Origin: Deltaproteobacteria bacterium | GTDB lineage: Bacteria > Omnitrophota > Gorgyraeia > Gygaellales > Profunditerraquicolaceae | Assembly: GCA_050258655.1 (NCBI GenBank) | Contig: JBLMZF010000121.1 | Location: forward strand, 1-45,271 | DNA length: 45,271 nucleotides | Direction: 5' to 3' | Shown: piece after piece, positions 8,129-25,707 of the stretch | Position numbering within the stretch: position 1 is the first letter of the stretch | Layout: every line of letters starts with the position of its first letter | Translations under genes and position numbers: made by a program | The notes under the pieces: model-generated | What the model was told of the DNA's origin: nothing | The model's input: only the letters and a program-made list of their open reading frames with translations | Database searches by the model: none

Positions 8129-8132
<4 letters not shown>

Positions 8133-10875: not shown

Positions 10876-10905
10876 GTCCTGTCCTCCTGTGCATGGTTGA
10901 GGGTT

Positions 10906-10987
10906 AAAAAAACAGAGGCGTTCTTCTTAAAAAAGAACGCCTCTGTTCTCTTTCTCGTGACGCCCGGTCACATGCACATCCGCGTGC
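10906..10987 (-). promoter_or_regulatory. glnA leader: hairpins plus an ANTAR-type hexaloop overlapping an intrinsic terminator
   Basis: Minus strand GCAC-GCGGAT-GTGC, GTGAC-CGGGC-GTCAC, AGAAC-AGAGGC-GTTCT (10949-10934). The last hairpin is mutually exclusive with the terminator AACAGAGGCGTTCTT/AAGAACGCCTCTGTT-TTTTT. Confidence 0.75.
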
Positions 10988-11008
10988 TTAAATACTGTGC
11001 AACATTAA

Positions 11009-11039
11009 TACAAGTAACCGGCAAGGCGTTCTGGTAACA
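11009..11039 (-). promoter_or_regulatory. Bipartite motif TGTTACCAG-N11-GGTTACTTGTA, copy 1 (candidate alternative-sigma promoter or operator)
   Basis: All 20 box positions and the spacing are identical to the copy at 23290-23320, while the spacer differs. Confidence 0.75.
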
Positions 11040-11045
11040 TTTTTT

Positions 11046-11504
11046 CTACGGTTTCTCGAACTTCCTGAACGCTTCCACCAACTGTTCCGGGGTGGATGCC
11101 TTATCGAGGTCCTCTTTGAAAGCGCGGACCGTCAACAGCTTGGAAAGGTTCGCCAGCATCCTTAAATAGACGCCCAGATGCTCCGGATTGGTGCCCATGA
11201 GGAATATATAGCGGACCTCGCGGGAATCGGCCGAACCGAAAGGGATGCCTTTCGACGACTTGCCGAAAGCTATGGCAAGCTCCTTCACGGACTTGGTAGG
11301 ACAGTGCGGTACAGCGACGCCCTTGCCTATACCGGTCGAACCAAGCGCTTCCCTCTCAAGAAGATGCTTGACGAAATCGGCCGTATCGGTGACCTTGCCC
11401 ACGTTGCCGAGCACCCCGGCCAGCTCGCGTATCGCTTCCTCTTTGCTCTTCGCCTTGAGGTCCATCACACAGCTGTCTTTGGTAAGGAAATCGGTGAATT
11501 TCAT
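11046..11504 (-). CDS. PTS EIIA component (fructose/nitrogen, PtsN-like)
   Basis: 152 aa; LEREALGSTGIGKGVAVPHC phospho-His motif. Confidence 0.88.
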   Translation of the reverse strand: MKFTDFLTKDSCVMDLKAKSKEEAIRELAGVLGNVGKVTDTADFVKHLLEREALGSTGIGKGVAVPHCPTKSVKELAIAFGKSSKGIPFGSADSREVRYIFLMGTNPEHLGVYLRMLANLSKLLTVRAFKEDLDKASTPEQLVEAFRKFEKP

Positions 11505-11508
11505 CCTT

Positions 11509-11994
11509 TCAACACTCCTTATATAGCGCTTCCACCCGCTCGGGGTTCTTAACTACGAGGACCGGACAGGAAGCCCTCCGGAAAAGCCTCTCGCCCTCGT
11601 CATAAAAGATGTCTGTCGTCGAGAACACCTGTTTGAGCTCGCCCATTATCAGGATATCGGCTTTCTTCTCTCTGGCGATGGAGGCCACCTCGGTGCTTAT
11701 CTCCCCCCTGACGATCACTGTCTCCAGGGGGACACCCTTCTCCTTCGCCATCTTCGTCAGCCGTTCCATGAAGAGCTTCCCCTGCTGCTCCAGGTCCCGT
11801 TCGTACTGTTCTGCTTCCACCTCGACGAAGACCTTGCTGCGCAGGAGGTCCTGCAGCACCTTCTGGTTGACCACGTGCACGGCGGTAAGCCGCGCCTTGA
11901 GCTGCCGGGCGACCACGATGGCGTACTTCGCCGGTATGAGAGAGTTTGAAAAAGCCCCGACCGCGACCATCACATGCTCTACAGCCATGGACAC
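11509..11994 (-). CDS. Universal stress protein
   Basis: 161 aa; USP pattern HVMVAV...LTAVHVV...G......A...KADILIMG...ERLFRRASCPVLVVK. Confidence 0.88.
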   Translation of the reverse strand: MSMAVEHVMVAVGAFSNSLIPAKYAIVVARQLKARLTAVHVVNQKVLQDLLRSKVFVEVEAEQYERDLEQQGKLFMERLTKMAKEKGVPLETVIVRGEISTEVASIAREKKADILIMGELKQVFSTTDIFYDEGERLFRRASCPVLVVKNPERVEALYKEC

Positions 11995-12618
11995 CTACCT
12001 GTTTACGCTTCGCCTGTTCTTGATCAGTTTAAGGAGCGCGAAGGCGTCGCGCGACTCCTCATCGAGCCTGTCGCCGATATACTTGACGGCTTCCTGATAA
12101 TAGGGGATATATATCTTCTCGAGCGCGTTGACCTTGCGGATGGTCTTCTGGACCTCCGCGGCGATGCGCAGGAGAGCGATCTTCTTTTCCGCGAGCGACG
12201 CAAGCAGGCGCATGACGTCCCTGAACCGCCTGATGGTCTCGTCGACCGCCAGGCTCGTGTCGAAGGAACGGAAATAGGGAGCCTTCTCCACGACCTCGAG
12301 GGCGATGACGGGGATATGCACGCCCATGATCCTGCGGTGGCTTATGGTCAGGCTGTTGCGCGTGTCGATGGAGAAGCTTATGTCCTCCACCTTCGTCCTG
12401 CCCATGAGCACGACCGCCCTGTCCAGCTCGTCATATGCCTTCCTGAGCGCGTCATCCGTCTCGGACTGGAAACGGTCAACGGCGTCGACGAGCGCGGTGA
12501 GCTCCTCGAGCAGGATGCGCCGTTTCTCGTCGAGCAGGTCGTACCCTTCGCGGGTAAGCTCCAGCGATTTGCGCATCTTGAACAGATTGGTCTTGGTGGC
12601 CGCTACGTTTATCCTCAT
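11995..12618 (-). CDS. ntpD: V/A-type ATPase subunit D
   Basis: ATKTNL...GYDLLDEKRRIL and KTIRKVNALEKIYIP; follows subunit B. Confidence 0.93.
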   Translation of the reverse strand: MRINVAATKTNLFKMRKSLELTREGYDLLDEKRRILLEELTALVDAVDRFQSETDDALRKAYDELDRAVVLMGRTKVEDISFSIDTRNSLTISHRRIMGVHIPVIALEVVEKAPYFRSFDTSLAVDETIRRFRDVMRLLASLAEKKIALLRIAAEVQKTIRKVNALEKIYIPYYQEAVKYIGDRLDEESRDAFALLKLIKNRRSVNR

Positions 12619-12622
12619 CCTT

Positions 12623-14023
12623 TTAAATGATCTGCGAGACCTCGGGTCTCGGCTTGTAGTATTTGTCGAGTATCTCGGGCTTGATGCGCACCAGCTCCGT
12701 CTTCGGGAGCAGCGAGATCACGTCCCATCCCAGGTCGAGCCCCTGCTCCAGCGTGCGGCGCTCGTAGTATCCCTGGCCCAGGAACCTGCGCTCGAACTCG
12801 TCGCCGAACTTCAGGTACTGGTGGTCGAGCGGGGAAAGCTCCTCCTCGCCGATGATCGAGGCGAGCGCGCGGATATCCTTGACGCGCGCGTAGGAAGCGA
12901 AAAGCTGGGAGGAAAGAGCGGGATGGTCCTCGCGGGTCATGCCCTCCCCGATATTGTCCTTCATCAGTCGGGAGAGCGACGAAAGCAGCGTGACAGGCGG
13001 ATAGATGCCGCGGCCGAACAGCTCGCGGTCAAGCACGATCTGGCCTTCGGTTATGTAGCCGGTCAGGTCAGGCACCGGGTTCGTGATATCGTCGTTGGGC
13101 ATCGTCAGGATGGGCAGCTGCGTGATCGAGCCCTTGACGCCCTTCACCATTCCGGCGCGCTCGTAAAGGCTGGCCAGGTCGCTGTAAAGATAGCCGGGAT
13201 ATCCCTTGCGGGCCGGTATCTCCCCGCGGATCGAAGAGAGCTCGCGCAGCGCCTCGCAGTAGTTGGACATATCGGTCATGATGACCAGCACGTGCATGTT
13301 CTTGACGAACGCCAGGTATTCCGCGCAGGTCAGCGCGAAACGCGGCGTCAGGATCCTCTCGATCGAAGGGCTGTTGGCAAGGCTCAGGAACATGGTGACG
13401 CGGTCGAGGACGCCCGAATCCTCGAAGCTCTTGCGGAAGAACTGCGCGGTGTCGAACTTGACGCCCATCGCCGCGAAGACGACCGCGAAATCCACGCCCT
13501 TGACGCGCGCCTGGCGGGCGATCTGCGCCGCCATAAGGTCGTGCGGAAGGCCGGAGCCCGAGAAGATCGGGAGCTTCTGGCCCCTGACCAGAGTGGTCAT
13601 GATGTCGATGGAGCTGATGCCGGTCTCGATGATGTTGCAGGGATAATCGCGGGCGGTCGGGTTGATGGCCATGCCGTTGACATCGCGCATCTCGTCGAAC
13701 GGCGGCCGGGGCATCCCGTCGATGGGATTGCCGAGCCCGTCGAAGACGCGGCCGAGGACATCCTCGGAGACGCCCATCTTGAGCGGTTCCTCGCGGAAAC
13801 GGACCAGGGCGTTGGAGATCGAGATGCCGCTGGTGCCGCCCAGGAGCTGGACGACCGCGTATCCTTTGCCGACCTCGAGGGTCACGCCGACCCTGGTCTT
13901 GCCTTCGCTGTCCGCCACCTCGACGTACTCGTTGTACCCGACGTTGTGGATGTTGCGGATCACAAAGATCGGCCCCACCACTTCCTCAAGTCCCCTGTAT
14001 TCGCGCAGACTGTATTCGCTCAT
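12623..14023 (-). CDS. ntpB: V/A-type ATPase subunit B
   Basis: [59 protein letters not shown]. Confidence 0.96.
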
Positions 14024-14036
14024 ATCCTTTTACCGT

Positions 14037-14077
14037 TCCAACCTCGTAGATTGCCGTTGGCAACCTACGAGGTTGGA
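14037..14077. repeat. 41-bp intergenic palindrome between the A and B subunit genes
   Basis: TCCAACCTCGTAGATTGCC-GTT-GGCAACCTACGAGGTTGGA; 18/19 paired, and the mismatch is a G-U pair on the coding strand. Confidence 0.75.
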
Positions 14078-14082
14078 TAGGT

Positions 14083-15852
14083 CTAGAAGTTGATTAATTT
14101 GTTCAACGACTCCTCGACGCCCTTGTCGGCGAACTGCCTGAGCTTCTCCAGGTCCTCGGGCGACTCCGTGTACTGGAACTTCATGCGCAGGAGGTCCTGG
14201 AAAACAGGCGTCTGGCGCAGTTCGGAAATGCTCAATCCCTTCCTTATCAGCTCCTCGCTCTTGTGGTAGAACTTGATGATCGCCTTGAGCATGTAGAACT
14301 GTTTTTTAGGCGAAGCGTAGGTATCGACCTTGTCGTAGGCGACCTGCTGGAGGAAGCCGTTGCGGAAGATATAGCTGGTCTCCAGGATCAGCCTCTGCGT
14401 CACCGGGAGCACGTCCGCGCCGACGAGCTTTACCACCTGCTGGAGGCGCTGCTCGTGCTGGAGTATCTCCATGATCGTGAGCCTGTAGCTGGTCCATTCC
14501 GGGTCGATGTTCTTCTCCCACCATTCCTTGATCTGGTCGAGGTATTCCGAGTAGCTGTCGGTCCAGCTGATGGCCGGGTAATGGCGCGAGTAAGCGAGAT
14601 CGCGGTCCAATGCCCAGAAACAGCGCACGAACCGCTTGGTGTGCGAGGTCACCGGCTCGGAGAAATCGCCGCCGGGCGGCGAGACCGAGGCGACGATGGT
14701 GATCGAACCGTCCATGCCCGAAAGGGTCTTGACCTTTCCCGCCCGTTCGTAGAACTCGGCGAGCCTGCTGGGCAGGTAGGCAGGGAAACCCTCTTCCAGG
14801 GGCATCTCCTCAAGACGGCCGGAGAGCTCGCGCAAGGCCTCCGCCCACCGGGAAGTGGAATCTGCCATCAGCGCGACGTTGTATCCCATGTCGCGATAAT
14901 ATTCGGCCATCGTGATGCCGGTGTAGATGCTGGCCTCGCGGGCGGCGACCGGCATGTTCGAGGTATTGGCGATAAGTATGGTGCGTTCCATCAGCGGCCT
15001 GCCCGTCCGCGGGTCGACCAGCTTTGGGAACGTCTCGAGGACGTCTGTCATCTCGTTGCCGCGTTCGCCGCAGCCGACGTAGACGACGATCTCGGCGTCG
15101 CTCCATTTCGCCAGCTGGTGCTGGGTCACGGTCTTGCCCGTGCCGAAGCCCCCGGGGATCGCGACCGCTCCTCCCTTGGCGACCGGGAACAGGGTATCGA
15201 TAACCCTCTGTCCGGTGATCAGCGGGGCGGAGAGAGTCTCTCTCATCCCTACGGGACGGCCCATGCGCACCGGCCACTTCTGGAGCATGGAAAGATCCCT
15301 TTCGCCTTTAGCAGTCTGCACCACCGCGATCTTTTCCTCTATGGTATAGTCGCCTTCGGGGGCGATCCAGGTCACTGTGCCTTCGATGTCCGGAGGGACC
15401 ATGACGCGGTGGGCGATCAGCTCGCTCTCGCGCACCTCGCCGAGCACCGCCCCTTTGCCTGCCTGCCCTCCCGCCTTCACTTTCGGCTGGAAATGCCATT
15501 TGCGGGAACGGTCGATGGCCGGAACGTGGACGCCGCGGCGGATGAAGGACCCTTCCTTGCCCTTGATCACCTCGAGCGGGCGCTGGATGCCGTCGTAGAT
15601 GGTGCCGAGCATGCCCGGGCCGAGCTCGACCGTCAGCGGAGTGCCCCTGGTATACACCGGGTCGCCCGCCTTTATCGAGGTGGTATCCTCGTATATCTGC
15701 ACGTACGCCCGGTCCCCCTTGAGGTGCATGACCTCGCCGATGAGGCGGTCATCGCCGACCTCGACCATGTCCAGCATCCTCAGGTCGCCGATCTCCTCTA
15801 TCTCGGCCACCGGTCCCACGATCCTGGAAACCTTGACAGCCTTTTTCTCCAT
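14083..15852 (-). CDS. ntpA: V/A-type ATPase catalytic subunit A
   Basis: Walker A PGGFGTGKT, GCGERGNE, NTSNMPVAAREAS, DSTSRWAEALRE. Confidence 0.97.
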   Translation of the reverse strand: MEKKAVKVSRIVGPVAEIEEIGDLRMLDMVEVGDDRLIGEVMHLKGDRAYVQIYEDTTSIKAGDPVYTRGTPLTVELGPGMLGTIYDGIQRPLEVIKGKEGSFIRRGVHVPAIDRSRKWHFQPKVKAGGQAGKGAVLGEVRESELIAHRVMVPPDIEGTVTWIAPEGDYTIEEKIAVVQTAKGERDLSMLQKWPVRMGRPVGMRETLSAPLITGQRVIDTLFPVAKGGAVAIPGGFGTGKTVTQHQLAKWSDAEIVVYVGCGERGNEMTDVLETFPKLVDPRTGRPLMERTILIANTSNMPVAAREASIYTGITMAEYYRDMGYNVALMADSTSRWAEALRELSGRLEEMPLEEGFPAYLPSRLAEFYERAGKVKTLSGMDGSITIVASVSPPGGDFSEPVTSHTKRFVRCFWALDRDLAYSRHYPAISWTDSYSEYLDQIKEWWEKNIDPEWTSYRLTIMEILQHEQRLQQVVKLVGADVLPVTQRLILETSYIFRNGFLQQVAYDKVDTYASPKKQFYMLKAIIKFYHKSEELIRKGLSISELRQTPVFQDLLRMKFQYTESPEDLEKLRQFADKGVEESLNKLINF

Positions 15853-16508
15853 TAGAATGATTCCTTCAATAGTCTGGCGTAGATGGCTTCCTCGAGCCGC
15901 GACAGCCTGCTCGAGAACCGGTTATCGAACTGTATCCTTCCGTCGGGCGACAGGATCACCACGCCCGGCTCGTCAAAATCGCTTTTTGTGTAGATGAAGG
16001 TGAAATCCTTCCCCGCCGCCTTGCGGCAGAAGGCCCCGAGCCCGGCGATGAAATCGCCCGAGGCGAAAAGTTTCTCGTCGGGAAAGGCATAGCGGACCTC
16101 AAGCCGCGGCTCGCCGATGACCTTCGCGCCCTCGGCCACCGCCTTGTAAAGGAACTGGTCGTATCCGGGCGCGCCCCTGAACCTGCGCGCCTGCTCGGAG
16201 ACCGCCGAAAGCACCTGGCGGATGAACCGGTCCTTCTCCTCCAGCAGGAGCCGCTTTTTCTCGAGGGATATCCCCGAAAGCACGCGCTCACGCGACTTCG
16301 CGATTTCCGCGCGCGCCTGGTCGAGGATCGCCCCCCGCCTGCTCTCGGCCTCGTCGGACGCCTGCCTGAGGACCCTGTCGGCCTCATCCTTGGCGGCGGC
16401 GACGAGAGACTGCGCCTCCCGGGACGCCTCCTCCCTGATGCGCGCGACGATAAGCTCCGCGTTCTTTTCCTGCCCCGGAACGGCCTGCTGCTCTTTTCTC
16501 TTTTCCAT
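15852..16508 (-). CDS. ntpE: V/A-type ATPase subunit E
   Basis: Coiled-coil N-terminus, C-terminal GVVILSPDGRIQFDNRFSSRL; operon position. Confidence 0.85.
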   Translation of the reverse strand: MEKRKEQQAVPGQEKNAELIVARIREEASREAQSLVAAAKDEADRVLRQASDEAESRRGAILDQARAEIAKSRERVLSGISLEKKRLLLEEKDRFIRQVLSAVSEQARRFRGAPGYDQFLYKAVAEGAKVIGEPRLEVRYAFPDEKLFASGDFIAGLGAFCRKAAGKDFTFIYTKSDFDEPGVVILSPDGRIQFDNRFSSRLSRLEEAIYARLLKESF

Positions 16509-16805
16509 TTACATCCCCGCGATCTGCCTCAGAAGCTCCCCAGCGCTCTTCCTCGGCCTGAAATCGCCCTTTGAGGGGACCTCGAGGATGAGCGGCATCG
16601 GATTGAGGCTGATATGCTCGCTGACTTCGTCACGGACCAGGTCCGCGGCCTTGCTGGTGATCAGGATGATGCCCACGTCCTTGTCGGAACGCGCGGCGGA
16701 AAGGGCGTCCAGCGCCTCATCTCGCGAGGAGACGTCCCTCGTCTCGACGCCGGCGAGCCTGAACCCCAGCCCGCTCTCCCTGTCCGCTATGCAGAAAAAT
16801 ACCAT
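16509..16805 (-). CDS. V/A-type ATPase subunit F
   Basis: 98 aa; IADRESGLGFRLAGV, DVGIILIT, PLILEVP. Confidence 0.9.
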   Translation of the reverse strand: MVFFCIADRESGLGFRLAGVETRDVSSRDEALDALSAARSDKDVGIILITSKAADLVRDEVSEHISLNPMPLILEVPSKGDFRPRKSAGELLRQIAGM

Positions 16806-17174
<369 letters not shown>

Positions 17175-19091
17175 TTATATCGAAAGCGGTTTGAACTCGG
17201 TCTTCCCGCTGATGAAGAACTTCGAGAAAAATTCGTAATAGTTGAGCCTCAGCGACTGGATGCTGACCACAACACCCTCCAGCACCATCACCACGATATT
17301 GCCGACGACGATCATCCCCAGGGACCCGGCGCCCTTGAGCCCGTGGGCGATCTGGAAGATCGCCAGAAGCAGGGCGGCATGCGCCAGCGCGAACGCGCCC
17401 ATGCGCACGAACGAGACGGTGTTGGCCAGGTATCCCATCGCGAACTCGAGCAGCCCCAGGAGGCTCTCGATGAAAGATTCCAGGAAACTGCCGTGCGGCT
17501 CATGGCCATGCCGCGCCGTCTGCCTGCGATGCATGAAGAACTCGACGATCGGGAACAGGAACAGGCATCCGATGCCGCCGAGGATCACCGCGTACAGCGC
17601 GGCCGGGACCGGCGCGTGCGTGAACATCGTACGGATGATCACGGCGATCGCGGACCAGTAGACCAACCCGCCGATAAGTCCGGCCTTGTCGAAAAGCAGC
17701 CGGACGTAGTTGCGGTCCCTCAGCGCGTTTACCACGTTGAGCAGGATACCGATACTTATGATCGCTATGCCGGCATACACGCTGAACGAGAGCAGCCCGT
17801 CGACGTTCCGCAGCGGCTCCCTGAACAGCGAATGGAACTCCACGCCGAAAGCGCTGCCTTCAAGCAGGCCGAATATGGCCCCGCTTGTGCCGCAGTAGAC
17901 CAGGAGCGCCGCGAACTGCCTCATCAACCCGTCCTTGACCTTGAAAAGCGTGAACGCGCCGATGAGCGCGAACACCAGCCCCTGCCCCAGGTCACCGAAC
18001 ATCAGGCCGAACATGAACACGAAACTCAGCGCCACGAAGAAGGTCGGATCGAGCGTCCCGTAGCGGGGAACGCCGTACGAACCCACCAGCAGGCCGAACG
18101 GGGCAAGCAGCGGGTTGCGCGCGAAACGCACAGGGATATCTTCTTTTGGCACATCAGTATCGCGCGGCTCTCTGGCTTCGATATAGGATGCTCCGGCGAC
18201 CCGGCGGACGCCTGAAAAAAGTTTCTGCCGGTCTTCGGCGGGGACCCAGCCCGAGAAGATCACCGTCTTCTCGGTGGCGACCGCCTGCCTGCGCGCCTCA
18301 AGCAGCGCTTTATGCAGCCCGGCCGACGAATATGCCAGCGAAAGGGTCTGCCTGACGTACATGCCGAGGGCGGCGATCTGCGCTCCGGCCTTCTCCGCCT
18401 GCCCCCGGTTGGCAGCTATCTGAGCCCGCAGGCGTTCCTGCGCTTCCTGCGGCATCGCCTTGCCTTTGGGGAACTCTTCTTCCTGCCAGCCCGCGTCGGC
18501 AAGCGCCTTGTCCAGCCGCGCGCTGTCACGCTTCAGACCGATAAAAAGAGCGGAAACACGCGTTCCCTGCCTGGAAAAAGGCGAGATCACGTGGGGGACC
18601 TGAGCAAGGTCGTGTTCAAGGATCTCTATGTTCTTCTCGTCGATCTTCCCCAGTGATATGCGCAGGAAGGAATAAGCGCCTTCCCGGGGCAAAGGCAGCG
18701 ACAGATAGGCGGACACCTGTGAAAGGACCGCCTCGTCGTTCTTGACCGCCTGCAGGAGCTCCTCCCTCTTTGCGACCAGAGGGGCCAGTTGTTTATCTAT
18801 CCGCGCCAGTTCCGCTCCGGGATCGCCCGGCATCAGCGCCGGAGCCGGGCGCGGGGCCTCGATCTTCACCGACATCACCGCGGCCATTTCCTGCGCCCTG
18901 GCCTGGAGCCTGTCGAACCGTTCGTATTCCCGGGCGACTTCCACCGGCGAAAGACCCTGGATCCCTCCCTCCACCTGCCTGAGATCGACGGGATGGAAAG
19001 CCCCGGAAGCCAGCAGGTACGAACTTACGTCCTGCGCCTTGTCCTTTAAAACAACCAGATTGACCAGTTCGAGCGGATCGGTCGTGAACAT
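17175..19091 (-). CDS. ntpI: V/A-type ATPase membrane subunit I/a
   Basis: YGVPRYGTLDPT, FGLMFGDLGQG, NTVSFVRMGAFALAH, QSLRLNYYEFFSKF. Start placed at ATG 19091 (TGATG overlap with the C subunit stop). Confidence 0.93.
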   Translation of the reverse strand: MFTTDPLELVNLVVLKDKAQDVSSYLLASGAFHPVDLRQVEGGIQGLSPVEVAREYERFDRLQARAQEMAAVMSVKIEAPRPAPALMPGDPGAELARIDKQLAPLVAKREELLQAVKNDEAVLSQVSAYLSLPLPREGAYSFLRISLGKIDEKNIEILEHDLAQVPHVISPFSRQGTRVSALFIGLKRDSARLDKALADAGWQEEEFPKGKAMPQEAQERLRAQIAANRGQAEKAGAQIAALGMYVRQTLSLAYSSAGLHKALLEARRQAVATEKTVIFSGWVPAEDRQKLFSGVRRVAGASYIEAREPRDTDVPKEDIPVRFARNPLLAPFGLLVGSYGVPRYGTLDPTFFVALSFVFMFGLMFGDLGQGLVFALIGAFTLFKVKDGLMRQFAALLVYCGTSGAIFGLLEGSAFGVEFHSLFREPLRNVDGLLSFSVYAGIAIISIGILLNVVNALRDRNYVRLLFDKAGLIGGLVYWSAIAVIIRTMFTHAPVPAALYAVILGGIGCLFLFPIVEFFMHRRQTARHGHEPHGSFLESFIESLLGLLEFAMGYLANTVSFVRMGAFALAHAALLLAIFQIAHGLKGAGSLGMIVVGNIVVMVLEGVVVSIQSLRLNYYEFFSKFFISGKTEFKPLSI

Positions 19092-20128
19092 CAGAAAGTT
19101 ATAAGGGACAACACGTCGTCCTTCTTCCAACCCAGCCGCTTGGCGTTGAGGACCGAAATGATATTCCTTGTCTCTTTGCGTTTAAGCGTCAGGTAACCAA
19201 GCACGGTGCCGATGGAGAACGGAAACCCGGCCAGGGCGCGCTTGACCTGCCTCAGGAGCACTTCGTACAGGAAATTCTCGATCAAATGGATATTCTGCTC
19301 CGAGAGGTCTTTAAGACGGCCGTAAGGGCCTATGGCCAGACTTTCCAGGAGCTTGCCCATCCCGTCGGCAGTGTAGTATTTGCGCACTGAATCCCGGTCG
19401 ATGCGCTCTCCGCCGGGGATGATCCACTCCAGCATATCGCCCATCGGTATATCGTAGTACTTCCGGAGCCTCACCAGCCAGTTTATGTTCTCTATGTCGA
19501 TCTCGATGCCGAGGATCTTCATCGCCACGCTCTTGTCCTGCTCGGAGAACTTCCCCACCGCCTTGAGCACCCGCTGGTAGTAATCTATGTCGAGCGAGAC
19601 CTCCAGGTAGAACAGCGAACCGGTCTCCTTGTACTTGTCCCTGCCCCTGGCCAGCGGCCTGAAATACGGGGTCTCCGAAAGCAAGACGATCAGCTCGTTT
19701 ATATCCTGCGCCTTGAGCAGCTTGCCGTAATCGATCGCATGGAGGATGGTATGGTTCGGCAGGTACTCGGCCGGGTCGACCTGCACCCGCTTATGCCACA
19801 GCCGCAGCGCGACCTTGAGCGCCTCGATCTCGTATTTCTCGAGGAGAAGGTCCACGAACTCTTTCTCTGACGGCTGGAGTATCGAAGCCACCTTGCGGAA
19901 CACATCCTCATCGAAGACGGTGAGCGCTTCCTCGATGCGGTGTATGTCCGGCTCCTCCTTGCTCAGCTTCTCGAACACCGGAGCGTACTGTGTCCTGGCA
20001 AGGAAGTCCAGTGCCTCGCGCAGATCACGGGCGGACAGGAGCGACTCGAACGACGGCTCGTCGAGCAGGCGCGAAAGCATCGCGCGGATCTTTGCGTTGG
20101 CGTAGGCGTATTTCTTGAGCTGGCTCAT
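19091..20128 (-). CDS. ntpC: V/A-type ATPase subunit C/d
   Basis: YAYANAKIRAMLSRLL N-terminus, IDIENINW and LGYLTLKRKETRNI C-terminus. Confidence 0.9.
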   Translation of the reverse strand: MSQLKKYAYANAKIRAMLSRLLDEPSFESLLSARDLREALDFLARTQYAPVFEKLSKEEPDIHRIEEALTVFDEDVFRKVASILQPSEKEFVDLLLEKYEIEALKVALRLWHKRVQVDPAEYLPNHTILHAIDYGKLLKAQDINELIVLLSETPYFRPLARGRDKYKETGSLFYLEVSLDIDYYQRVLKAVGKFSEQDKSVAMKILGIEIDIENINWLVRLRKYYDIPMGDMLEWIIPGGERIDRDSVRKYYTADGMGKLLESLAIGPYGRLKDLSEQNIHLIENFLYEVLLRQVKRALAGFPFSIGTVLGYLTLKRKETRNIISVLNAKRLGWKKDDVLSLITF

Positions 20129-20179
20129 AACGTTTTACACCGCCCAGGTGACAAATCCACTGCGCGGCGAATGATTTAT

Positions 20180-20497
20180 TTAGATCTTTATGTCTATGAC
20201 CTCGGAAAAATACTGCTGGGCGAACCTCGGGATGTCCTTCGACTTCTTCTCCCGCTGAGCGGCCGTCTGCGAGCGCGCTTCGGCGAGCATCTTCTCCTTC
20301 TCGGCCTGCTGCGCTTTGAACGCTTCATCCTTCTGTTTCTGAACGTCGCTCTTGGCGTCGCTGACCGCGTTTTCAATAGTGATCGCAGCCTGCTGCCTGG
20401 CACGGGTGACCAGCGCGACAGAATCCTGACGCGCCTTTTCGACCTGCTTGCGGGCGTTCTCCTCTTCCTGAAGAATCCTGCTGACTATTTCCTTCAT
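20180..20497 (-). CDS. V/A-type ATPase peripheral stalk subunit G/H
   Basis: 105-aa E/K/A-rich coiled coil, first gene of the operon. Confidence 0.75.
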   Translation of the reverse strand: MKEIVSRILQEEENARKQVEKARQDSVALVTRARQQAAITIENAVSDAKSDVQKQKDEAFKAQQAEKEKMLAEARSQTAAQREKKSKDIPRFAQQYFSEVIDIKI

Positions 20498-20567
20498 CTG
20501 AATCCTAACCTCATGTAAGATGGGGTGTTGGGAATTGAAGCGGGAATAGCGTTCTATTGGATTTATT

Positions 20568-20596
20568 ATTATATCTCCACCCTCAGGAAGTGTCTA
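20568..20596 (-). promoter_or_regulatory. Sigma-70 promoter for the V/A-ATPase operon
   Basis: TAGACA-N17-TATAAT on the minus strand. Confidence 0.7.
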
Positions 20597-20621
20597 TATT
20601 TTTCTATATAATAGCTAACTT

Positions 20622-20650
20622 GGGGACGGGTCCCTCGTTAACCCGTCCCC
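20622..20650. repeat. GGGGACGGGT/ACCCGTCCCC palindrome after the glnK stop (terminator- or REP-like)
   Basis: 10-bp perfect arms; same arm sequence as 8637-8670. Confidence 0.7.
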
Positions 20651-20659
20651 TTTTATACC

Positions 20660-21001
20660 TTAACCTATCGCCGGTGAACCGCGCTCCTCGGTACGGATAC
20701 GGATACAGTCCTTGAGGTCGAGGACGAATATCTTGCCGTCCCCTATCTCGCCCGTGCGCGCGCCCTTGACGATGGCCTTGACCGTGGGCTCGAGATAATT
20801 ATCGTTCACGGCTATATCGACGCGTATCTTTCGCAGCAGGTTGCCCGTTTCCTTTATGCCGCGGTAGACCTCGGTCACGCCTCCCTGCCTGCCATGGCCG
20901 AGCACCTCGCTGACGGTGATCAGGTTCACATCGGCCTTGTAGAGCTCCTGCTTGACCTCTTCAAGTCTGTCGGGTTGAATGATCGCGATCACATATTTCA
21001 T
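20660..21001 (-). CDS. glnK: PII nitrogen signalling protein
   Basis: 113 aa; GHGRQGG, YRG and ARTGEIGDGKIFV..L..CIRIRT; adjacent to amtB. Confidence 0.93.
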   Translation of the reverse strand: MKYVIAIIQPDRLEEVKQELYKADVNLITVSEVLGHGRQGGVTEVYRGIKETGNLLRKIRVDIAVNDNYLEPTVKAIVKGARTGEIGDGKIFVLDLKDCIRIRTEERGSPAIG

Positions 21002-21057
21002 ATTGGTCTCCTTATACCCGGCGTTTGATAGGAATTACGCCGGTATACGTCCGTGCG

Positions 21058-22284
21058 CTATTCGATTACAGTGTATGCCCGTTCATGATGCTGGGTGAGG
21101 TCGAGCCCCATCTTTTCATCCTGCTCGTTGACCCGGAGCCCCGTGACCGCCTTGACGAGCAGGCAGATAAGGAACGTTCCGACCCCGGAGAAGACTATCG
21201 TCGTCCCGACCGCGATGACCTGGGTCATCAGCTGACCCGGATTGCCGTAGAAAAGTCCGTCGGCTCCCGCAGGGTTGACCGATCTGGTCGCGAAAAGCCC
21301 GGTGGCGATCGCGCCCCAAATGCCGCCCACGCCGTGGACGCCGAATACGTCGAGAGAATCGTCATAACCGAGCTTGCTCTTCATGACGGTCACCATGAAG
21401 AAGCAGATCACGCTGACCAGAAGGCCGATGATCACCGCACCGATCACGTTGACGTACCCTGAGCCGGGGGTGATGGCTACCAGGCCTGCGACAAGGCCGG
21501 TGGCCACACCGAACGTGGTGGGCTTGCCGCTCATCTTCCATTCAAGCAATGCCCAGCTCAGGCCCGCTGCCGCGGCCGCGGTGTTAGTGACCACGAACGC
21601 GTTGACCGCGAGGCCGTTCGCCGCGAGGGCGCTTCCAGAGTTGAACCCGAACCAGCCGAACCAGAGAAGGCCGGCGCCGAGCAGGATGAACGGCACGTTG
21701 TGAGGCGGATACGCGTGGCCGTCATATCCCCTGCGCTTGCCGAGCATCAGGCAGGCGACGAACGCCGCGATACCCGCGTTGACATGGACGACGGTGCCGC
21801 CCGCGAAATCAAGCGCTCCCATCTTCCTCAGGAAACCGCCCACTCCCCATACCCAGTGGCACACGGGATCATAGATGAAGGTTGCCCAGAGAAGCATGAA
21901 CAGCAGGAACCCGGAGAACTTCATCCTCTCCGCGAACGCGCCAAGGATAAGGGCGGGGGTGATCACCGCGAACATGCACTGGAAGATCATGAACGCCTGA
22001 TGCGGTATGGTGCCGGCGTAATCCGCGTACGGCTCGAAGCCGACGCCGTTAAGCCCCGCCCAGCTGAACCCTCCCCAGAAGCCCGATCCGGGATGGAATG
22101 AAAGGCTGTAGCCGAACAGGACCCATTGGACGCTGATGACGCACATCAGGATGAAACATTGCATCAGGATGCCCAGGATGTTCTTCTTGCGGACCATGCC
22201 TCCGTAGAAGAAGGCCAGACCCGGGGTCATCAGAAGAACGAGGGCAGTCGATGCCAGAACCCACGCGGTATCCCCTGCATTCAT
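21058..22284 (-). CDS. amtB: Ammonium transporter
   Basis: LMTPGLAFFYGG, DFAGGTVVH, WFGWFGFNSGS, DDSLDVFGVHG (both pore histidines present). Confidence 0.97.
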   Translation of the reverse strand: MNAGDTAWVLASTALVLLMTPGLAFFYGGMVRKKNILGILMQCFILMCVISVQWVLFGYSLSFHPGSGFWGGFSWAGLNGVGFEPYADYAGTIPHQAFMIFQCMFAVITPALILGAFAERMKFSGFLLFMLLWATFIYDPVCHWVWGVGGFLRKMGALDFAGGTVVHVNAGIAAFVACLMLGKRRGYDGHAYPPHNVPFILLGAGLLWFGWFGFNSGSALAANGLAVNAFVVTNTAAAAAGLSWALLEWKMSGKPTTFGVATGLVAGLVAITPGSGYVNVIGAVIIGLLVSVICFFMVTVMKSKLGYDDSLDVFGVHGVGGIWGAIATGLFATRSVNPAGADGLFYGNPGQLMTQVIAVGTTIVFSGVGTFLICLLVKAVTGLRVNEQDEKMGLDLTQHHERAYTVIE

Positions 22285-22306
22285 GTGTACCTCCTTTGCG
22301 GTTGTT

Positions 22307-23113
22307 TTAGAACTTGTATTTTGCGGTTACTCCCCAGTAAACCCTGCTTTTCTGGTTGCCGTCGGCCGGGTCCCTGAGGTGGCTGAACGCGCGCGAATAA
22401 TTGACGTTGGGACTGACCGTAGCGCTCGCCGTTATCGGAACGGTAAAGCCCGCGGAGAGACCCAGATCCTGTCCGTCCCGGTTGATGAAGTCCTTGTGGT
22501 TGAACCCGTAATGGCCGGCGAGATCGAGCGAACAGTTGTACCTGGAGACCGCCACCGGCACTCCGATGCCAAGATTCAGCACGGTATAGGTCCCGTTGCC
22601 GCCGCCGTTCTTCGGGTCGCCGTAATCGCGGTAGAAGAAGACCGACGGGCAGGCGGTGATGCCTTTGATCGTACCGATGGTGGGGCAAGGCACGACCGGG
22701 AAGGTCAGCCCGAGGTACCATTCCTTGCTGAAGGTATTGGTCCCGGAGAAATCATAATAGGTGTTGCCGGCGGAGAGGGCGTATTTCCCCAGGGCATAGG
22801 TGTAATCGAGGGTATAGTCCTGCTCGTCCGACTTAAGCGTATCCTCGTTCTCAAGGTCGTGATTGACCCAGATCTTCGCGGTGAAGACGCCGAAACCCTT
22901 GTCGGGGGTGGAAAGGTAATAGCCCGGCTGGATGACCGCGTCGCGGTCAAGGATCATGCCTCTCCAGACATATTTGGTGAAAAAGGAAACATCGCCGGTA
23001 GCCGTGAACCCGTTGCCGCTTAAGACCCCCGGGGCCTCGGGCGTCTGTGAAAAAGCCGGTGAGACCATGCACAAGAGAGACATCGCCAGCACTGCTGAGA
23101 GTACTCTTTTCAT
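22307..23113 (-). CDS. Putative outer-membrane beta-barrel porin (TorF/TIGR02001-like), upstream of amtB
   Basis: Signal peptide MKRVLSAVLAMSLLCMVSPAFS from ATG 23113 with RBS AAGGAG; TKYVWRG...IQPG pattern; alternating aromatic strands; C-terminal Phe (AKYKF). Confidence 0.7.
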   Translation of the reverse strand: MKRVLSAVLAMSLLCMVSPAFSQTPEAPGVLSGNGFTATGDVSFFTKYVWRGMILDRDAVIQPGYYLSTPDKGFGVFTAKIWVNHDLENEDTLKSDEQDYTLDYTYALGKYALSAGNTYYDFSGTNTFSKEWYLGLTFPVVPCPTIGTIKGITACPSVFFYRDYGDPKNGGGNGTYTVLNLGIGVPVAVSRYNCSLDLAGHYGFNHKDFINRDGQDLGLSAGFTVPITASATVSPNVNYSRAFSHLRDPADGNQKSRVYWGVTAKYKF

Positions 23114-23137
23114 CGCCGCTCCTTGGTTGACCATCTT

Positions 23138-23283
23138 AAAAATGAAAAGGGCGTCCCAAATCCCGCCCTTCATCGGATTCAAGACGCCTGCGTCTTTAAC
23201 GTACCATCTGCCTGGTTTTAACAAAAAAAGCGTTCTCCTATACTCTGAGAACGCTCTCTTCCGAGGCACTATCACTGTGCCTC
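23138..23283 (-). promoter_or_regulatory. Leader of porin-amtB-glnK with two tandem terminators and ANTAR-like hairpins
   Basis: Minus strand: GAGGCAC-AGTGATA-GTGCCTC; terminator AGCGTTCTC/GAGAACGCT-T6; ACCA-GGCAGA-TGGT; AAGAC-GCAGGC-GTCTT (23196-23181) overlapping a 14-bp stem GGCGTCTTGAATCC/GGATTTGGGACGCC followed by TTTTCATTTTT. Confidence 0.65.
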
Positions 23284-23289
23284 CATCAT

Positions 23290-23320
23290 TACAAGTAACC
23301 CGGTCTTACGCCTGGTAACA
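23290..23320 (-). promoter_or_regulatory. Bipartite motif TGTTACCAG-N11-GGTTACTTGTA, copy 2
   Basis: Same boxes and spacing as 11009-11039; begins 5 nt after the sigma factor stop codon. Confidence 0.75.
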
Positions 23321-23325: not shown

Positions 23326-23832
23326 CTATTGTATCTTCAGGTCAAGATACTTGCGGCACTTATCGCCGATAGTTTTCTTCATCTTGACCACCCTGACATG
23401 GGAAAGACCCACACGGGCGCCGATCTGGCGCGTGGTCAGCCCCTGCGCGAACAGCGGGAGCAGCTTCTTTTCCCGGTCGGTCAGGCCGTTGTTGCAGATC
23501 ACATCCGCCAGCATCCTGTTGTTGAGCTGCTCGATGAAATCCTCGTGGCGCGGGTCCGGCAGGTCGACGGTCTCTTCAGCGTTGTCGAGGCATAAGCGGC
23601 TGAACCGGTCCTTGCTCATCCGGATATGGTTCTGGAGATGGAAATAGCAGCCCTGGAGGATGTAGCTCTCCGTCTTGTCCGCGAACGCGCCGCTGTTGAA
23701 ATTCTTCCACAGGAAGACCACCGCCTCCTGGAACAGGTCCTCCTCATCCATCGAGGAGAATCCCCGGTTCAGCTTGTAGGCGATCGCCCTGAGCTTGGGA
23801 GTGAGCCATTTGAGGAAATCCTCGAACCCCAT
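23326..23832 (-). CDS. Small sigma-70 family factor (regions 2 and 4 only, ECF/SigH-sized)
   Basis: 168 aa; region 2 DEEDLFQEAVVFLW and region 4 LTDREKKLL...GLTTRQIGARVGLS. ATG 23832 overlaps the nadE stop (TAATG). Confidence 0.85.
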   Translation of the reverse strand: MGFEDFLKWLTPKLRAIAYKLNRGFSSMDEEDLFQEAVVFLWKNFNSGAFADKTESYILQGCYFHLQNHIRMSKDRFSRLCLDNAEETVDLPDPRHEDFIEQLNNRMLADVICNNGLTDREKKLLPLFAQGLTTRQIGARVGLSHVRVVKMKKTIGDKCRKYLDLKIQ

Positions 23833-25538: not shown

Positions 25539-25595
25539 AGTGTCCGTATACCCCGCACTTGCGGGGAATTGCGCGGGTATGCGCCCGTGCGCAAA

Positions 25596-25692
25596 TAAAA
25601 AAACGTCCTTATATACATTATACAGCCGATGTATTCAGGACGTCTTTATCCCCAAAAAAAACGTTCGCCGTCACTGGCGAACGTCATTGTTC
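25596..25692 (-). promoter_or_regulatory. nadE-sigma leader: two tandem ANTAR-hairpin/terminator modules
   Basis: GAAC-AATGAC-GTTC (25692-25679) overlaps GACGTTCGCC/GGCGAACGTT plus a T-run. GGAT-AAAGAC-GTCC (25651-25638) overlaps GACGTCCT...AGGACGTT plus a T-run. Confidence 0.8.
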
Positions 25693-25707
25693 CCTCTTTC
25701 GCTTATA

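What the first reader, a model, noticed from the sequence alone, without database searches (positions are those of the whole stretch)
11009..23320. Shared motif TGTTACCAG-N11-GGTTACTTGTA upstream of glnA and porin-amtB-glnK: candidate promoter of the adjacent sigma factor
Two copies 12 kb apart (11009-11039 and 23290-23320) have 20/20 identical box positions, identical spacing and different spacers. Each is preceded by an A/T run and followed 8-9 nt later by GCACAGT and then the leader hairpins, which is -35/-10 geometry. Neither region has an evident TTGACA/TATAAT or sigma54 GG-N10-GC site. It does not match NtcA (GTA-N8-TAC), Bacillus GlnR/TnrA (TGTNA-N7-TNACA) or NtrC sites. The GTTAC direct repeat 20 bp apart leaves a transcription-factor operator as the alternative.
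Basis: partly seen in the sequence, partly recalled or inferred. Interest (0 to 1): 0.75.

Follow-up and report, generated by a model that had tools for sequence, protein, structure and literature searches.

The report
Nitrogen-gene promoter for a dedicated sigma
A two-part DNA signal in front of the ammonium-uptake and glutamine-synthesis genes of an uncultured Omnitrophota bacterium is most likely the promoter read by a small sigma factor encoded right beside it, which would show how this little-known phylum switches on nitrogen assimilation.

Summary
Two identical 20-position motifs lie on the minus strand at 11009-11039 and 23290-23320 (0 of 100 shuffles). They are the only such sites in the 2.09-Mb genome. 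Relatives show the conserved core is GTTACCA-N14-TTACTT(GTA). The second "GG" and the GTTAC direct repeat are not conserved. The organism is Candidatus Omnitrophota.

In 78 of 80 loci that encode the sigma orthologue, the motif follows the gene on the same strand, always with a 14-nt spacer. In 301 sampled genomes, 66 have both motif and sigma, 6 only the motif, 10 only the sigma and 219 neither. Most exceptions are contig ends or relaxed motif variants.

Every site examined precedes nitrogen genes. Most are followed about 10 nt later by ANTAR-type dual-hairpin attenuators, which is where a -10 box sits in the sigma70-driven leaders of nadE-sigma and pyrG. In four sigma-less relatives, amtB and glnA3 lack box 1. 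In one of them, amtB has a canonical sigma70 promoter in front of a similar leader.

Best reading (0.72): a dedicated promoter of a divergent two-domain sigma, in a cascade with GAF-ANTAR antiterminators. No start site has been mapped. I rate it a new variant of a known kind, interest 0.66.

The parts
23290..23320 (-). Motif copy 2. Box 1 GTTACCA is at 23319-23313, the 14-nt spacer at 23312-23299, and box 2 TTACTTGTA at 23298-23290. Proposed promoter of porin-amtB-glnK.
   Evidence: Exact match. It starts 6 nt after the sigma stop codon. Orthologous sites occur in 78 of 80 sigma loci.
11009..11039 (-). Motif copy 1. Box 1 is at 11038-11032 and box 2 at 11017-11009. Proposed promoter of glnA, possibly continuing into the Fis-HTH gene, gltB and gltD.
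   Evidence: Exact match. Orthologous sites lie upstream of glnA3 in relatives.
23326..23832 (-). Gene for the 168-aa two-domain sigma70-family factor (start at M13 of the longest ORF), the proposed reader of the motif.
   Evidence: TIGR02937 scores 45.9 bits against a cut-off of 42.9. AF2 model has pLDDT 83. All listed Foldseek hits are sigma factors. The start is fixed by alignment A1.
23832..25538 (-). nadE (glutamine-dependent NAD synthetase). It overlaps the sigma start and is co-oriented with the sigma gene, so the two are probably one operon.
   Evidence: Pfam NAD_synthase and CN_hydrolase. nadE-sigma synteny is seen in many loci.
25708..25735 (-). Canonical sigma70-type promoter TTGACA-16-(TG)gTATACT upstream of nadE-sigma.
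   Evidence: Matches 11 of 12 with a TG extension. A match of at least 10 of 12 lies upstream of 43 of 71 assessable (nadE-)sigma units.
25595..25700 (-). nadE-sigma leader with two tandem attenuators. The first has hairpin GAAC-AATGAC-GTTC (25692-25679) overlapping a terminator (25685-25660, then Ts). The second has GGGAT-AAAGAC-GTCCT (25652-25637) and its own terminator.
23114..23289 (-). Leader of porin-amtB-glnK. P1 is GAGGCAC-AGTGATA-GTGCCTC (23283-23263). Terminator 1 is at 23261-23223. A second hairpin-plus-terminator module lies at about 23188-23149.
   Evidence: Fold at -59.4 kcal/mol, z -5.5. Sequence.
10876..11008 (-). glnA leader. It has upstream hairpins and P2 GAAC-AGAGGC-GTTC (10948-10935), whose 3' arm lies inside the 5' arm of a terminator of 15 or more base pairs (10947-10911, T-run 10910-10904).
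   Evidence: (z -6.5).
22307..23113 (-). Porin-like outer-membrane protein, first gene after motif copy 2.
   Evidence: Weak Porin_4 hit only. A signal-peptide-like N-terminus starts at the ATG at 23113. Orthologues occupy the same position in relatives.
21058..22284 (-). amtB ammonium transporter.
   Evidence: Pfam Ammonium_transp, 1.2e-128.
20660..21001 (-). glnK (P-II).
   Evidence: Pfam P-II.
8680..10875 (-). glnA, type III glutamine synthetase.
   Evidence: Pfam GSIII_N, Gln-synt_C and Gln-synt_C-ter.
8129..8491 (-). Small Fis-type HTH protein (120 aa) between glnA and gltB. In other genomes it is the first gene after a motif copy. It was considered as a rival reader of the motif.
   Evidence: Pfam HTH_8, 5e-16. 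Context. Distribution.
3555..8144 (-). gltB, glutamate synthase large subunit. gltD follows at 2129-3553.

Best explanation
The motif GTTACCA-N14-TTACTTGTA is a promoter. Box 1 acts as the -35 element and box 2 as the -10 element. Transcription should start about 5-9 nt after TTGTA (inferred).

This sigma and promoter pair drives a small regulon of nitrogen acquisition and assimilation genes. In this genome the regulon is glnA (possibly with the Fis-HTH gene, gltB and gltD) and porin-amtB-glnK.

Each transcript begins with an ANTAR-type leader. This is a pair of small hairpins, the second overlapping an intrinsic terminator. Read-through into the genes should therefore also need one of the genome's two GAF-ANTAR antiterminators (inferred from family knowledge).

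The sigma gene is not expressed from this motif. It lies behind a canonical sigma70 promoter followed by the same kind of attenuator. The likely logic is a feed-forward cascade. A nitrogen signal acts on GAF-ANTAR, which relieves termination. This raises nadE-sigma expression, the sigma opens the motif promoters, and ANTAR is needed a second time on their leaders.

Shown here: the motif, its conservation, its rigid spacing, its position, its regulon, its co-distribution with the sigma, the sigma fold, and the hairpin-terminator leaders. Inferred: that the sigma binds the motif, where transcription starts, and what signal is sensed.
For: 1. Rarity and specificity. There are 2 exact copies and nothing at 1-2 mismatches in 2.09 Mb.

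2. Conservation. 133 distinct sites share box 1 and TTACTT (the selection criterion). The 14-nt spacer varies in sequence. An A-tract lies upstream and a T-tract before box 2. No conserved signal lies further upstream. Among 95 sites in 80 loci, every one has a 14-nt spacer and lies on the gene strand, although spacers of 12-16 nt and both strands were allowed.

3. Adjacency. 78 of 80 sigma loci carry the motif downstream of the sigma gene, starting within about 20 nt of its end in most rows examined. In some lineages box 1 lies inside the 3' end of the sigma gene. One MAG has two sigma genes on separate contigs, and a motif follows each (L074 and L076).

4. Co-distribution in 301 phylum genomes. 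66 have both, 6 only the motif, 10 only the sigma, and 219 neither (hand tally, with the sigma counted at E<=1e-20). Of the 6 motif-only genomes, 1 has a sigma fragment at a contig end, 2 have the expected sigma position beyond a contig end, and 1 is a chance hit. Of the 10 sigma-only genomes, 8 carry a relaxed variant.

5. Co-loss and promoter swap. In 4 sigma-less genomes of the same family, 0 of 6 regions upstream of amtB or glnA3 contain box 1. In G313, amtB instead has TTGACA-16-TATACT (11 of 12) in front of a similar hairpin and terminator leader.

6. Position. The first ANTAR-type hairpin most often starts 10 nt after box 2 (16 of 105 sites). In sigma70-driven leaders of the same loci it starts 6-10 nt after the -10 hexamer (17 of 43). 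In this window the pyrG leader hairpin starts after 9 intervening nt. No separate promoter fits between box 2 and the leader.

7. The protein is a sigma. TIGR02937 scores above its cut-off. The profile's best PDB hits are FliA and SigB. The AF2 model has pLDDT 83, and all listed Foldseek hits are sigma factors.

8. Regulon coherence. The first ORFs after 14 of 14 additional sites in relatives are amtB, glnA, a GATase, amino-acid permease-PII fusions and a porin.
Against: 1. There is no transcript-end evidence. The only run that holds the region is kept as contigs, which cover everything evenly. One contig bridges the sigma gene into the porin gene, which could be read-through or DNA.

2. One genome, G199 (96% complete), has a genuine perfect site after glnK but no detectable orthologue. 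The best hit is E 5.9e-6 to another 219-aa sigma-like ORF.

3. The system is atypical for ECF sigmas. No anti-sigma neighbour was recognised. There is no autoregulatory copy (0 of 71). The boxes lack the usual AAC and CGT signatures (recalled).

4. In L003 and L007 a canonical TTGACA-N16/17 promoter ends just upstream of box 1. In those two loci the motif may also be transcribed, which is what an operator would look like.

5. Co-occurrence is confounded by synteny and shared ancestry.

6. The genome encodes other sigma factors (RpoD, a 332-aa ORF, two ORFs of about 200 aa, and rpoN). These are excluded only by their lack of adjacency to the motif.
Confidence: 0.72

Rival explanations
1. The motif is an operator or activator site for a conventional transcription factor. 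Candidates are the small Fis-type HTH protein encoded in the glnA-gltB cluster, or an unidentified factor. Transcription would then be carried out by the housekeeping sigma.
For: Two boxes share TTAC 21 nt apart, on the same DNA face. In L003 and L007 a canonical sigma70 promoter ends right at box 1, as expected for an operator at +1. The Fis-HTH gene is a regulon member and is present in 60 of 72 motif-bearing genomes (hand tally).
Against: No conserved sigma70 -35 or -10 lies at a fixed distance upstream of the 133 sites. In most loci the sigma stop codon lies within about 20 nt of box 1. Box 2 contains no TAnnnT hexamer at a usable position (read from the sequence). The site is asymmetric, whereas Fis/NtrC-type HTH dimers bind dyads (family knowledge). 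The Fis-HTH link is looser than the sigma link: 12 genomes have only the motif, 21 have only the Fis-HTH gene, and 15 of those 21 have neither sigma nor motif. However, a single short query protein has limited sensitivity.
Confidence: 0.13
2. The motif is a promoter, but for a different alternative sigma of the genome. Its adjacency to this sigma gene would only reflect that gene's position in the nitrogen cluster.
For: The genome has at least four further sigma70-family ORFs and rpoN. The sigma is not autoregulated from the motif, so the usual ECF self-link is missing.
Against: The motif and this orthologue are gained and lost together, including within one genus: in g24, 12 of 14 genomes have both and G306 and G313 have neither. 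Both sigma copies of one MAG are followed by a motif. I did not test the distribution of the other sigma ORFs.
Confidence: 0.1
3. The motif acts at the RNA level, as part of a 5' leader or a processing site on read-through transcripts from the upstream gene.
For: An RNA-library contig runs from the sigma gene across the motif into the porin gene. Two loci have a sigma70 promoter just upstream.
Against: The two boxes cannot pair with each other (read from the sequence). The spacer is unconstrained in sequence but fixed in length. The same motif follows unrelated upstream genes: sigma, glnK, glnA and EIIA. The contig may derive from DNA.
Confidence: 0.05

Closest known systems
Group 4 (ECF) and minimal group 3 sigma70-family factors with their bipartite promoters (E. 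coli sigmaE, M. tuberculosis SigH/SigL/SigK, FliA/sigma28)
   Same: The protein has two helical domains (sigma2 and sigma4) joined by a disordered linker. It passes the TIGR02937 cut-off, and all listed fold matches are sigma factors. Its proposed promoter has two rigidly spaced boxes and serves a small, functionally coherent regulon next to the sigma gene.
   Different: Pfam sigma domains score below their cut-offs. The best sequence relatives in the PDB are FliA and SigB rather than ECFs. No anti-sigma neighbour was recognised, and the motif does not precede the sigma's own gene. The boxes (GTTACCA, TTACTTGTA) are unlike the ECF AAC/CGT pattern (recalled). The regulon is nitrogen assimilation rather than envelope or stress functions. 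The ECF reclassification paper PMC7826278 does not mention Omnitrophica, ammonium or nitrogen in its main text. The one held supplement (cut when stored) does not mention Omnitrophica, ammonium or P-II.
Sigma54 (RpoN) with NtrC, the Ntr regulon of Proteobacteria
   Same: An alternative sigma is dedicated to glnA, amtB-glnK and glutamate synthase genes (established knowledge).
   Different: The sigma family is unrelated. The promoter is GG-N10-GC, and no such site lies here. It needs an enhancer-binding ATPase. This genome also has an rpoN gene, so the new sigma does not simply fill a gap.
Geobacter sulfurreducens GnfL/GnfM plus GnfK/GnfR cascade (PMC2995071, abstract read)
   Same: Nitrogen genes are under two layers of control: a master transcription-initiation factor, and an ANTAR antiterminator acting on terminators in the same promoter-leader regions.
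   Different: In Geobacter, both layers are two-component systems according to the abstract, and the master system activates expression of the antitermination system. Here the initiation layer is a sigma70-family factor, the ANTAR proteins carry GAF domains rather than receiver domains, and the order appears reversed, with the sigma gene sitting behind an ANTAR-type attenuator.
ANTAR-target dual-hairpin leaders (EutV, NasR, AmiR; PMC3369931, passages read)
   Same: The leaders have small hairpins with hexaloops carrying A at position 1 and G at position 4. The second hairpin overlaps an intrinsic terminator. They lie upstream of P-II, ammonium transporter, and glutamine and glutamate synthase genes, and ANTAR proteins are encoded in the genome.
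   Different: This describes the leaders, not the motif itself. Several local hairpins deviate from the consensus. The porin leader has 7-nt loops, and the glnA P1 loop is GCGGAT. Rfam has no matching family.

Membership tests
Sigma70-family, group 4 (ECF)-like sigma factor (the protein) | Sigma2 and sigma4 domains only, recognised by family models | tested here: met
   TIGR02937 covers residues 15-175 at 45.9 bits against a cut-off of 42.9. Pfam Sigma70_r2 and r4 score only at E 0.034 and 0.0074. The AF2 model has two helical domains and a disordered linker at residues 81-93. All listed Foldseek hits are sigma factors.
Sigma70-family, group 4 (ECF)-like sigma factor (the protein) | Binds core RNA polymerase and directs initiation at a specific promoter | not testable with these tools
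   Needs in vitro transcription or a reporter assay.
Sigma70-family, group 4 (ECF)-like sigma factor (the protein) | Co-encoded anti-sigma factor (typical, not universal) | tested here: not met
   The neighbours are nadE upstream and porin, amtB and glnK downstream. No anti-sigma domain was recognised. The 428-aa ORF upstream of nadE has no family hit.
Sigma70-family, group 4 (ECF)-like sigma factor (the protein) | Autoregulation: its own promoter motif lies upstream of its own operon (typical) | tested here: not met
   The core motif lies upstream of the (nadE-)sigma unit in 0 of 71 assessable loci. Instead, 43 of 71 have a sigma70-type promoter matching at least 10 of 12.
Alternative-sigma promoter (the motif) | Two conserved boxes with fixed spacing, a variable spacer sequence, and one orientation relative to the gene | tested here: met
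   All 95 sites in 80 loci have a 14-nt spacer and lie on the gene strand. The information profile of 133 sites is. One site with a 15-nt spacer was seen (L143).
Alternative-sigma promoter (the motif) | Transcription starts a few nt downstream of the -10 box | not testable with these tools
   Only contigs of one RNA library were available. There is indirect support: the leader hairpin starts most often 10 nt after box 2, and 6-10 nt after true -10 hexamers in sister leaders.
Alternative-sigma promoter (the motif) | Presence depends on presence of the cognate sigma | tested here: met
   66 genomes have both, 6 only the motif, 10 only the sigma, and 219 neither, out of 301. Exceptions were examined. 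Co-loss with a promoter swap is shown. One exception (G199) remains unexplained.
Sigma54 promoter | TGGCAC-N5-TTGC (GG-N10-GC) | tested here: not met
   Only 3-mismatch hits lie near the sites, and the window total is at chance level (295 found, 334 expected). The consensus was recalled.
NtcA site | GTA-N8-TAC | tested here: not met
   There are 4 matches in the window, none within 5 kb of either copy. The consensus was recalled.
ANTAR-target leader (downstream of the motif) | Two hairpins with hexaloops carrying A1 and G4, the second overlapping a terminator, and an ANTAR protein in the genome | tested here: met
   At least 1 such hairpin occurs in 105 of 133 sites and at least 2 in 58 of 133. 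Shuffled controls give 24% and 3%, and the reverse complement gives 31 and 2 of 133. In the glnA leader here, P2 GAAC-AGAGGC-GTTC overlaps the terminator. The genome has two GAF-ANTAR genes. Own-window deviations: the porin leader loops have 7 nt, and the glnA P1 loop lacks A1. The definition is from PMC3369931.

The most novel reading that the evidence does not exclude
Omnitrophota may run nitrogen assimilation through a circuit not described elsewhere. An RNA-binding GAF-ANTAR antiterminator would be the primary nitrogen sensor. It would gate the synthesis of a stand-alone sigma70-family factor that has no anti-sigma. That sigma would then open a phylum-wide promoter type, GTTACCA-N14-TTACTT, on amtB, glnK, glnA and gltB, and the same antiterminator would be needed again on those leaders. 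This is a sigma-ANTAR coherent feed-forward loop doing the job that NtrBC and sigma54 do in Proteobacteria. A bolder, untested extension is that the extra P-II paralogue encoded directly after the promoter in many genomes modulates the sigma.
Probability: 0.45. Interest if true: 0.72.

Novelty: new variant of a known kind. Interest (0 to 1): 0.66.

Why it matters
Omnitrophota are widespread and almost entirely uncultured, and I found nothing in print about their gene regulation. Full-text searches for Omnitrophota with sigma factor and nitrogen, for 'ECF sigma' with Omnitrophica, and for the motif with glutamine synthetase returned nothing relevant.

If the reading is right, it gives the phylum its first defined pair of alternative sigma and promoter. 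It also gives a compact nitrogen regulon that can be predicted from sequence in several hundred MAGs. It would be an example of a sigma70-family factor, rather than sigma54, dedicated to ammonium assimilation and wired in series with ANTAR antitermination.

The pair is small (168 aa, 30 bp), highly specific (2-5 sites per genome in those searched) and unlike E. coli promoters. This makes it directly testable in a heterologous host, and it may be useful as an orthogonal expression part.

Tried and rejected
1. Transcript ends from public RNA data. One soil metatranscriptome (X1) holds 88% of the sampled words, but it is kept as contigs. Cover is even across all 30 bins, and one contig spans 22930-23817 across copy 2. 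No start, end or strand can be read from this. X2 and X3 laid nothing.

2. Rfam at gathering thresholds gave 0 hits in the window.

3. Sigma54 and NtcA consensus scans found nothing at the sites. I judged Actinobacterial GlnR, TnrA/GlnR and NtrC sites only by eye against recalled consensus sequences and did not pursue them.

4. Co-variation between sigma residues and the last three bases of box 2. I abandoned this because the GTA, ATA, AAT and other tails vary between sites within a single genome in the divergent lineages.

5. The small Fis-HTH protein as the reader of the motif. Its link to the motif is looser than the sigma's, and its family binds dyads.

6. A self-made strict scan for hexaloop hairpin plus overlapping terminator in the whole genome. 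It gave 8 hits. Four are credible (glnA, two in nadE, and pyrG) and four look spurious. It missed the porin leader because of its 7-nt loops.

8. I ran no complex prediction, because I make no claim that the sigma binds P-II or any other partner.

9. Two alignment calls failed on stop codons inside tblastn ranges. I recomputed clean ORF coordinates and made alignment A2.

Full report
**Observation.** Nothing else matches within 3 mismatches, and none of 100 shuffles gave a match. These are also the only matches in the 2.09-Mb, 160-contig assembly. A scan for GTTACCA-N13-15-TTACTTGTA found no sites at 1-2 mismatches. It found 12 sites at 3 mismatches, which I read as noise.

All genes of the region lie on the minus strand:
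- pyrG (342-1970)
- gltD (2129-3553)
- gltB (3555-8144)
- a 120-aa Fis-type HTH gene (8129-8491)
- type III glnA (8680-10875)
- motif copy 1
- a PtsN-like EIIA and a Usp gene
- a V-type ATPase operon
- glnK (20660-21001)
- amtB (21058-22284)
- a porin-like gene (22307-23113)
- motif copy 2
- the sigma-like gene (23326-23832)
- nadE (23832-25538)

**What is conserved.** Twenty-two of the 24 loci carry GTTACCA-N14-TTACTTGTA. The other two (L009, L012) have no nitrogen genes and look like chance hits.

The sites lie upstream of three kinds of gene:
- porin or amtB, with the sigma gene directly upstream in 10 loci
- glnA3
- the Fis-HTH gene followed by gltB

I collected 133 distinct sites from all loci fetched, selected on GTTACCA-N14-TTACTT. 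Beyond the selected positions they show an A-tract at -7 to -3, R at +8, a T-tract just before box 2, G-T-A after TTACTT (102, 120 and 114 of 133), and T35 and G36. Nothing further upstream is conserved. Only TTAC recurs.

**Organism and sigma family.** Record titles of the 80 best loci that encode a relative of the sigma name Candidatus Omnitrophota or Omnitrophica. A few MAGs are labelled Planctomycetales, 'bacterium' or Patescibacteria.

The protein starts at M13 of the longest ORF, which gives 168 aa. It passes the sigma-70/ECF superfamily model but not the Pfam sigma domains. Its profile finds FliA and SigB first among solved structures. It folds into two helical domains with a disordered linker (pLDDT 83). 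All listed Foldseek hits are sigma factors: SigB, SigK, SigL, SigH, sigmaE, AlgU, sigma28 and SigW. In the large protein collection the family has 653 members at E<=1e-5, named at most 'sigma-70 family'.

**Link between sigma and motif.** In 78 of the 80 loci the motif (at most 1 mismatch) follows the sigma gene on the same strand. I allowed spacers of 12-16 nt and both strands, yet all 95 sites have a 14-nt spacer and lie on the gene strand. One exception ends 76 nt after the sigma gene. I did not examine the other (L094) further. In most rows examined the motif starts within about 20 nt of the end of the sigma gene. In divergent lineages box 1 lies inside the gene, encoding G-Y-Q. One MAG has two sigma genes on separate contigs, each followed by a motif (L074 and L076).

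In a phylum sample of 301 genomes at least 80% complete:
- 72 have the motif at up to 1 mismatch. The table lists about 156 matches, against about 21 for the backwards control by my count.
- 76 have an orthologue at E<=1e-20. A clear gap separates these from weak partial hits at 1e-6 to 1e-9.
- My hand tally gives 66 with both, 6 motif only, 10 sigma only and 219 with neither.

The 6 motif-only genomes:
- G217 has the C-terminal 21 codons of the sigma at a contig end.
- G248 and G303 break exactly where the sigma gene is expected.
- G304 is a 1-mismatch hit without nitrogen genes.
- G110 was not inspected beyond a core hit.
- G199 is a genuine site with no orthologue found.

Of the 10 sigma-only genomes, 8 carry variants with box 1 intact and (T/G)TACTT plus a variable tail. 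G203 and G222 showed none.

**Co-loss.** In four genomes of the window's own family that lack both sigma and motif, none of the 6 regions upstream of amtB or glnA3 contains box 1. In G313, amtB is instead preceded by TTGACA-16-TATACT (11 of 12) and a hairpin and terminator leader of the same style. G313 belongs to genus g24, where 12 of 14 sampled genomes have both features. I regard this natural promoter swap as the strongest single argument that the motif is a promoter that needs this sigma.

**Leaders.** Downstream of the motif sites, small hairpins with A..G.. hexaloops are strongly enriched:

| Measure | Motif sites | Shuffled | Reverse complement |
|---|---|---|---|
| At least 1 hairpin | 105 of 133 | 24% | 31 of 133 |
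| At least 2 hairpins | 58 of 133 | 3% | 2 of 133 |

In addition, 118 of 133 sites have a run of at least 5 T. This is the ANTAR target architecture defined for EutV, NasR and AmiR, which is known upstream of P-II, amtB, and glutamine and glutamate synthase genes (PMC3369931, passages read).

The genome encodes two GAF-ANTAR proteins. In the window:
- In the glnA leader, P2 GAAC-AGAGGC-GTTC overlaps a terminator of 15 or more base pairs.
- The porin leader has P1 GAGGCAC-AGTGATA-GTGCCTC and two terminators.
- Both leaders fold far better than shuffles (z -6.5 and -5.5).

**Where the promoter must be.** The first hairpin most often begins 10 nt after box 2 (16 of 105 sites). The same kind of leader also occurs behind true sigma70 promoters:
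- nadE-sigma in the window: TTGACA-16-TGgTATACT, 11 of 12
- pyrG in the window
- 43 of 71 assessable (nadE-)sigma units in relatives, against 16 of 239 random windows. All 43 have a T-run and 41 have a hexaloop hairpin.

In leaders behind exact TTGACA-N16 promoters found across all fetched loci, the first hairpin begins 6-10 nt after the -10 hexamer in 17 of 43. Box 2 therefore occupies the place of a -10 element. Box 1 lies about 22 bp upstream, centre to centre, and an A-tract lies where an UP-like element would sit. No other promoter fits between box 2 and the leader, and none is conserved upstream. From this I infer starts about 5-9 nt after TTGTA.

**Regulon and circuit.** In this genome the regulon is two transcription units. 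In relatives with more sites, the first ORFs after 14 of 14 extra sites are amtB (4), glnA3 (5), a type I glnA, a class I GATase, amino-acid permease-P-II fusions (2) and an OmpL-like porin.

The sigma is not autoregulated from the motif (0 of 71). Instead it sits behind a sigma70 promoter and an ANTAR-type attenuator. In several loci a GAF-ANTAR gene lies directly upstream of nadE. The simplest circuit is ANTAR-gated synthesis of the sigma, followed by sigma-dependent and again ANTAR-gated expression of the assimilation genes. The signal and the role of GAF are inferred only.

**Against, and rivals.**
- There is no start-site evidence. The one RNA library available is stored as contigs that cover the region evenly and bridge the sigma gene into the porin gene.
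- G199 is an unexplained exception.
- L003 and L007 have a canonical sigma70 promoter ending at box 1. This is compatible with tandem promoters but also with an operator.
- Co-distribution is confounded by synteny and ancestry.
- Other sigma genes exist, including rpoN.
- The Fis-HTH protein is a weaker candidate reader: 60 genomes have it with the motif, 12 have the motif only, and 21 have the Fis-HTH gene only.

I put the sigma-promoter reading at 0.72, a conventional operator at 0.13, a promoter of another sigma at 0.10, and an RNA-level element at 0.05.

**Comparison and novelty.** The closest kinds are ECF or minimal sigma factors with bipartite promoters, the sigma54/NtrC Ntr regulon (same targets, unrelated machinery), and the two-layer Geobacter GnfLM/GnfKR cascade (PMC2995071, abstract).

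Several features differ from these:
- the sigma subfamily, which is generic in databases and not mentioned in the parts of the ECF reclassification paper I could search (its supplement was cut when stored)
- the box sequences
- the absence of an anti-sigma and of autoregulation
- the nitrogen regulon
- the placement of the sigma downstream of an ANTAR attenuator

Full-text searches found no paper on this. I file it as a new variant of a known kind, interest 0.66.

Noticed in passing
window 1982-2102 (minus): The pyrG (CTP synthase, 342-1970) leader has TTGACA-17-TATACT (2102-2074), then P1 GGTTC-AATGAC-GAACC (2064-2049), P2 AAAC-AACGGC-GTTT (2039-2026) and a terminator. A glutamine-amidotransferase gene outside classical nitrogen assimilation appears to be under ANTAR-type attenuation.
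   Followed up: partly
window 25595-25735 (minus): nadE-sigma is preceded by a near-perfect extended sigma70 promoter and two tandem hairpin-terminator modules. The same arrangement recurs upstream of the (nadE-)sigma unit in 43 of 71 relatives. In some loci (L033, L079, L082, L098) a GAF-ANTAR gene ends just upstream of nadE.
   Followed up: yes
window 23149-23188 and 25597-25652 (minus): The second attenuator modules of the porin and nadE leaders use an AAGAC/GGGAT...GTCTT/GTCCT hairpin whose loop keeps G at position 4 but often lacks A at position 1 (GCAGGC, AAAGAC). They may be the target of the second GAF-ANTAR paralogue.
   Followed up: no
window 8129-8491 (minus): A 120-aa protein has a remnant receiver-like N-terminus (MITLLITEDE...) and a Fis/NtrC-type HTH_8 domain. 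It is wedged between glnA and gltB. Short versions of 70-150 aa are widespread in the class, including genomes without the sigma. Its function is unknown.
   Followed up: partly
window 11046-11994 (minus): A PtsN-like EIIA (152 aa) and a universal stress protein lie directly upstream of the glnA promoter, here and in L023. In Proteobacteria ptsN sits in the rpoN operon, a curious parallel.
   Followed up: no
L003 and L007 (glnK-glnA intergenic regions of relatives): A canonical TTGACA-N16/17-TA(A/T)AAT promoter ends a few nt before box 1 of the motif. This implies tandem promoters, or transcription through the motif, in those two genomes.
   Followed up: partly
L120, L121, L126, L129, L136, L140, L142 (divergent Omnitrophota lineages): Box 1 (GGTTACCAA) lies inside the 3' end of the sigma ORF and encodes Gly-Tyr-Gln. 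The promoter and the C-terminus of its proposed reader overlap.
   Followed up: partly
L159 and L169 (relatives): Motif sites precede genes for an amino-acid permease fused to a C-terminal P-II domain (622-632 aa), an unusual fusion.
   Followed up: no
window 11995-20497 (minus): A complete V/A-type ATPase operon (subunits D, B, A, E, F, K, I, C and an H-like ORF) separates the two nitrogen units.
   Followed up: no
G199 (L110, L152): The gene order is nadE-amtB-glnK-[perfect motif]-...-glnA3-gltB, with no sigma gene between nadE and amtB and no orthologue found in the 96%-complete assembly. This is the one genome that does not fit.
   Followed up: partly
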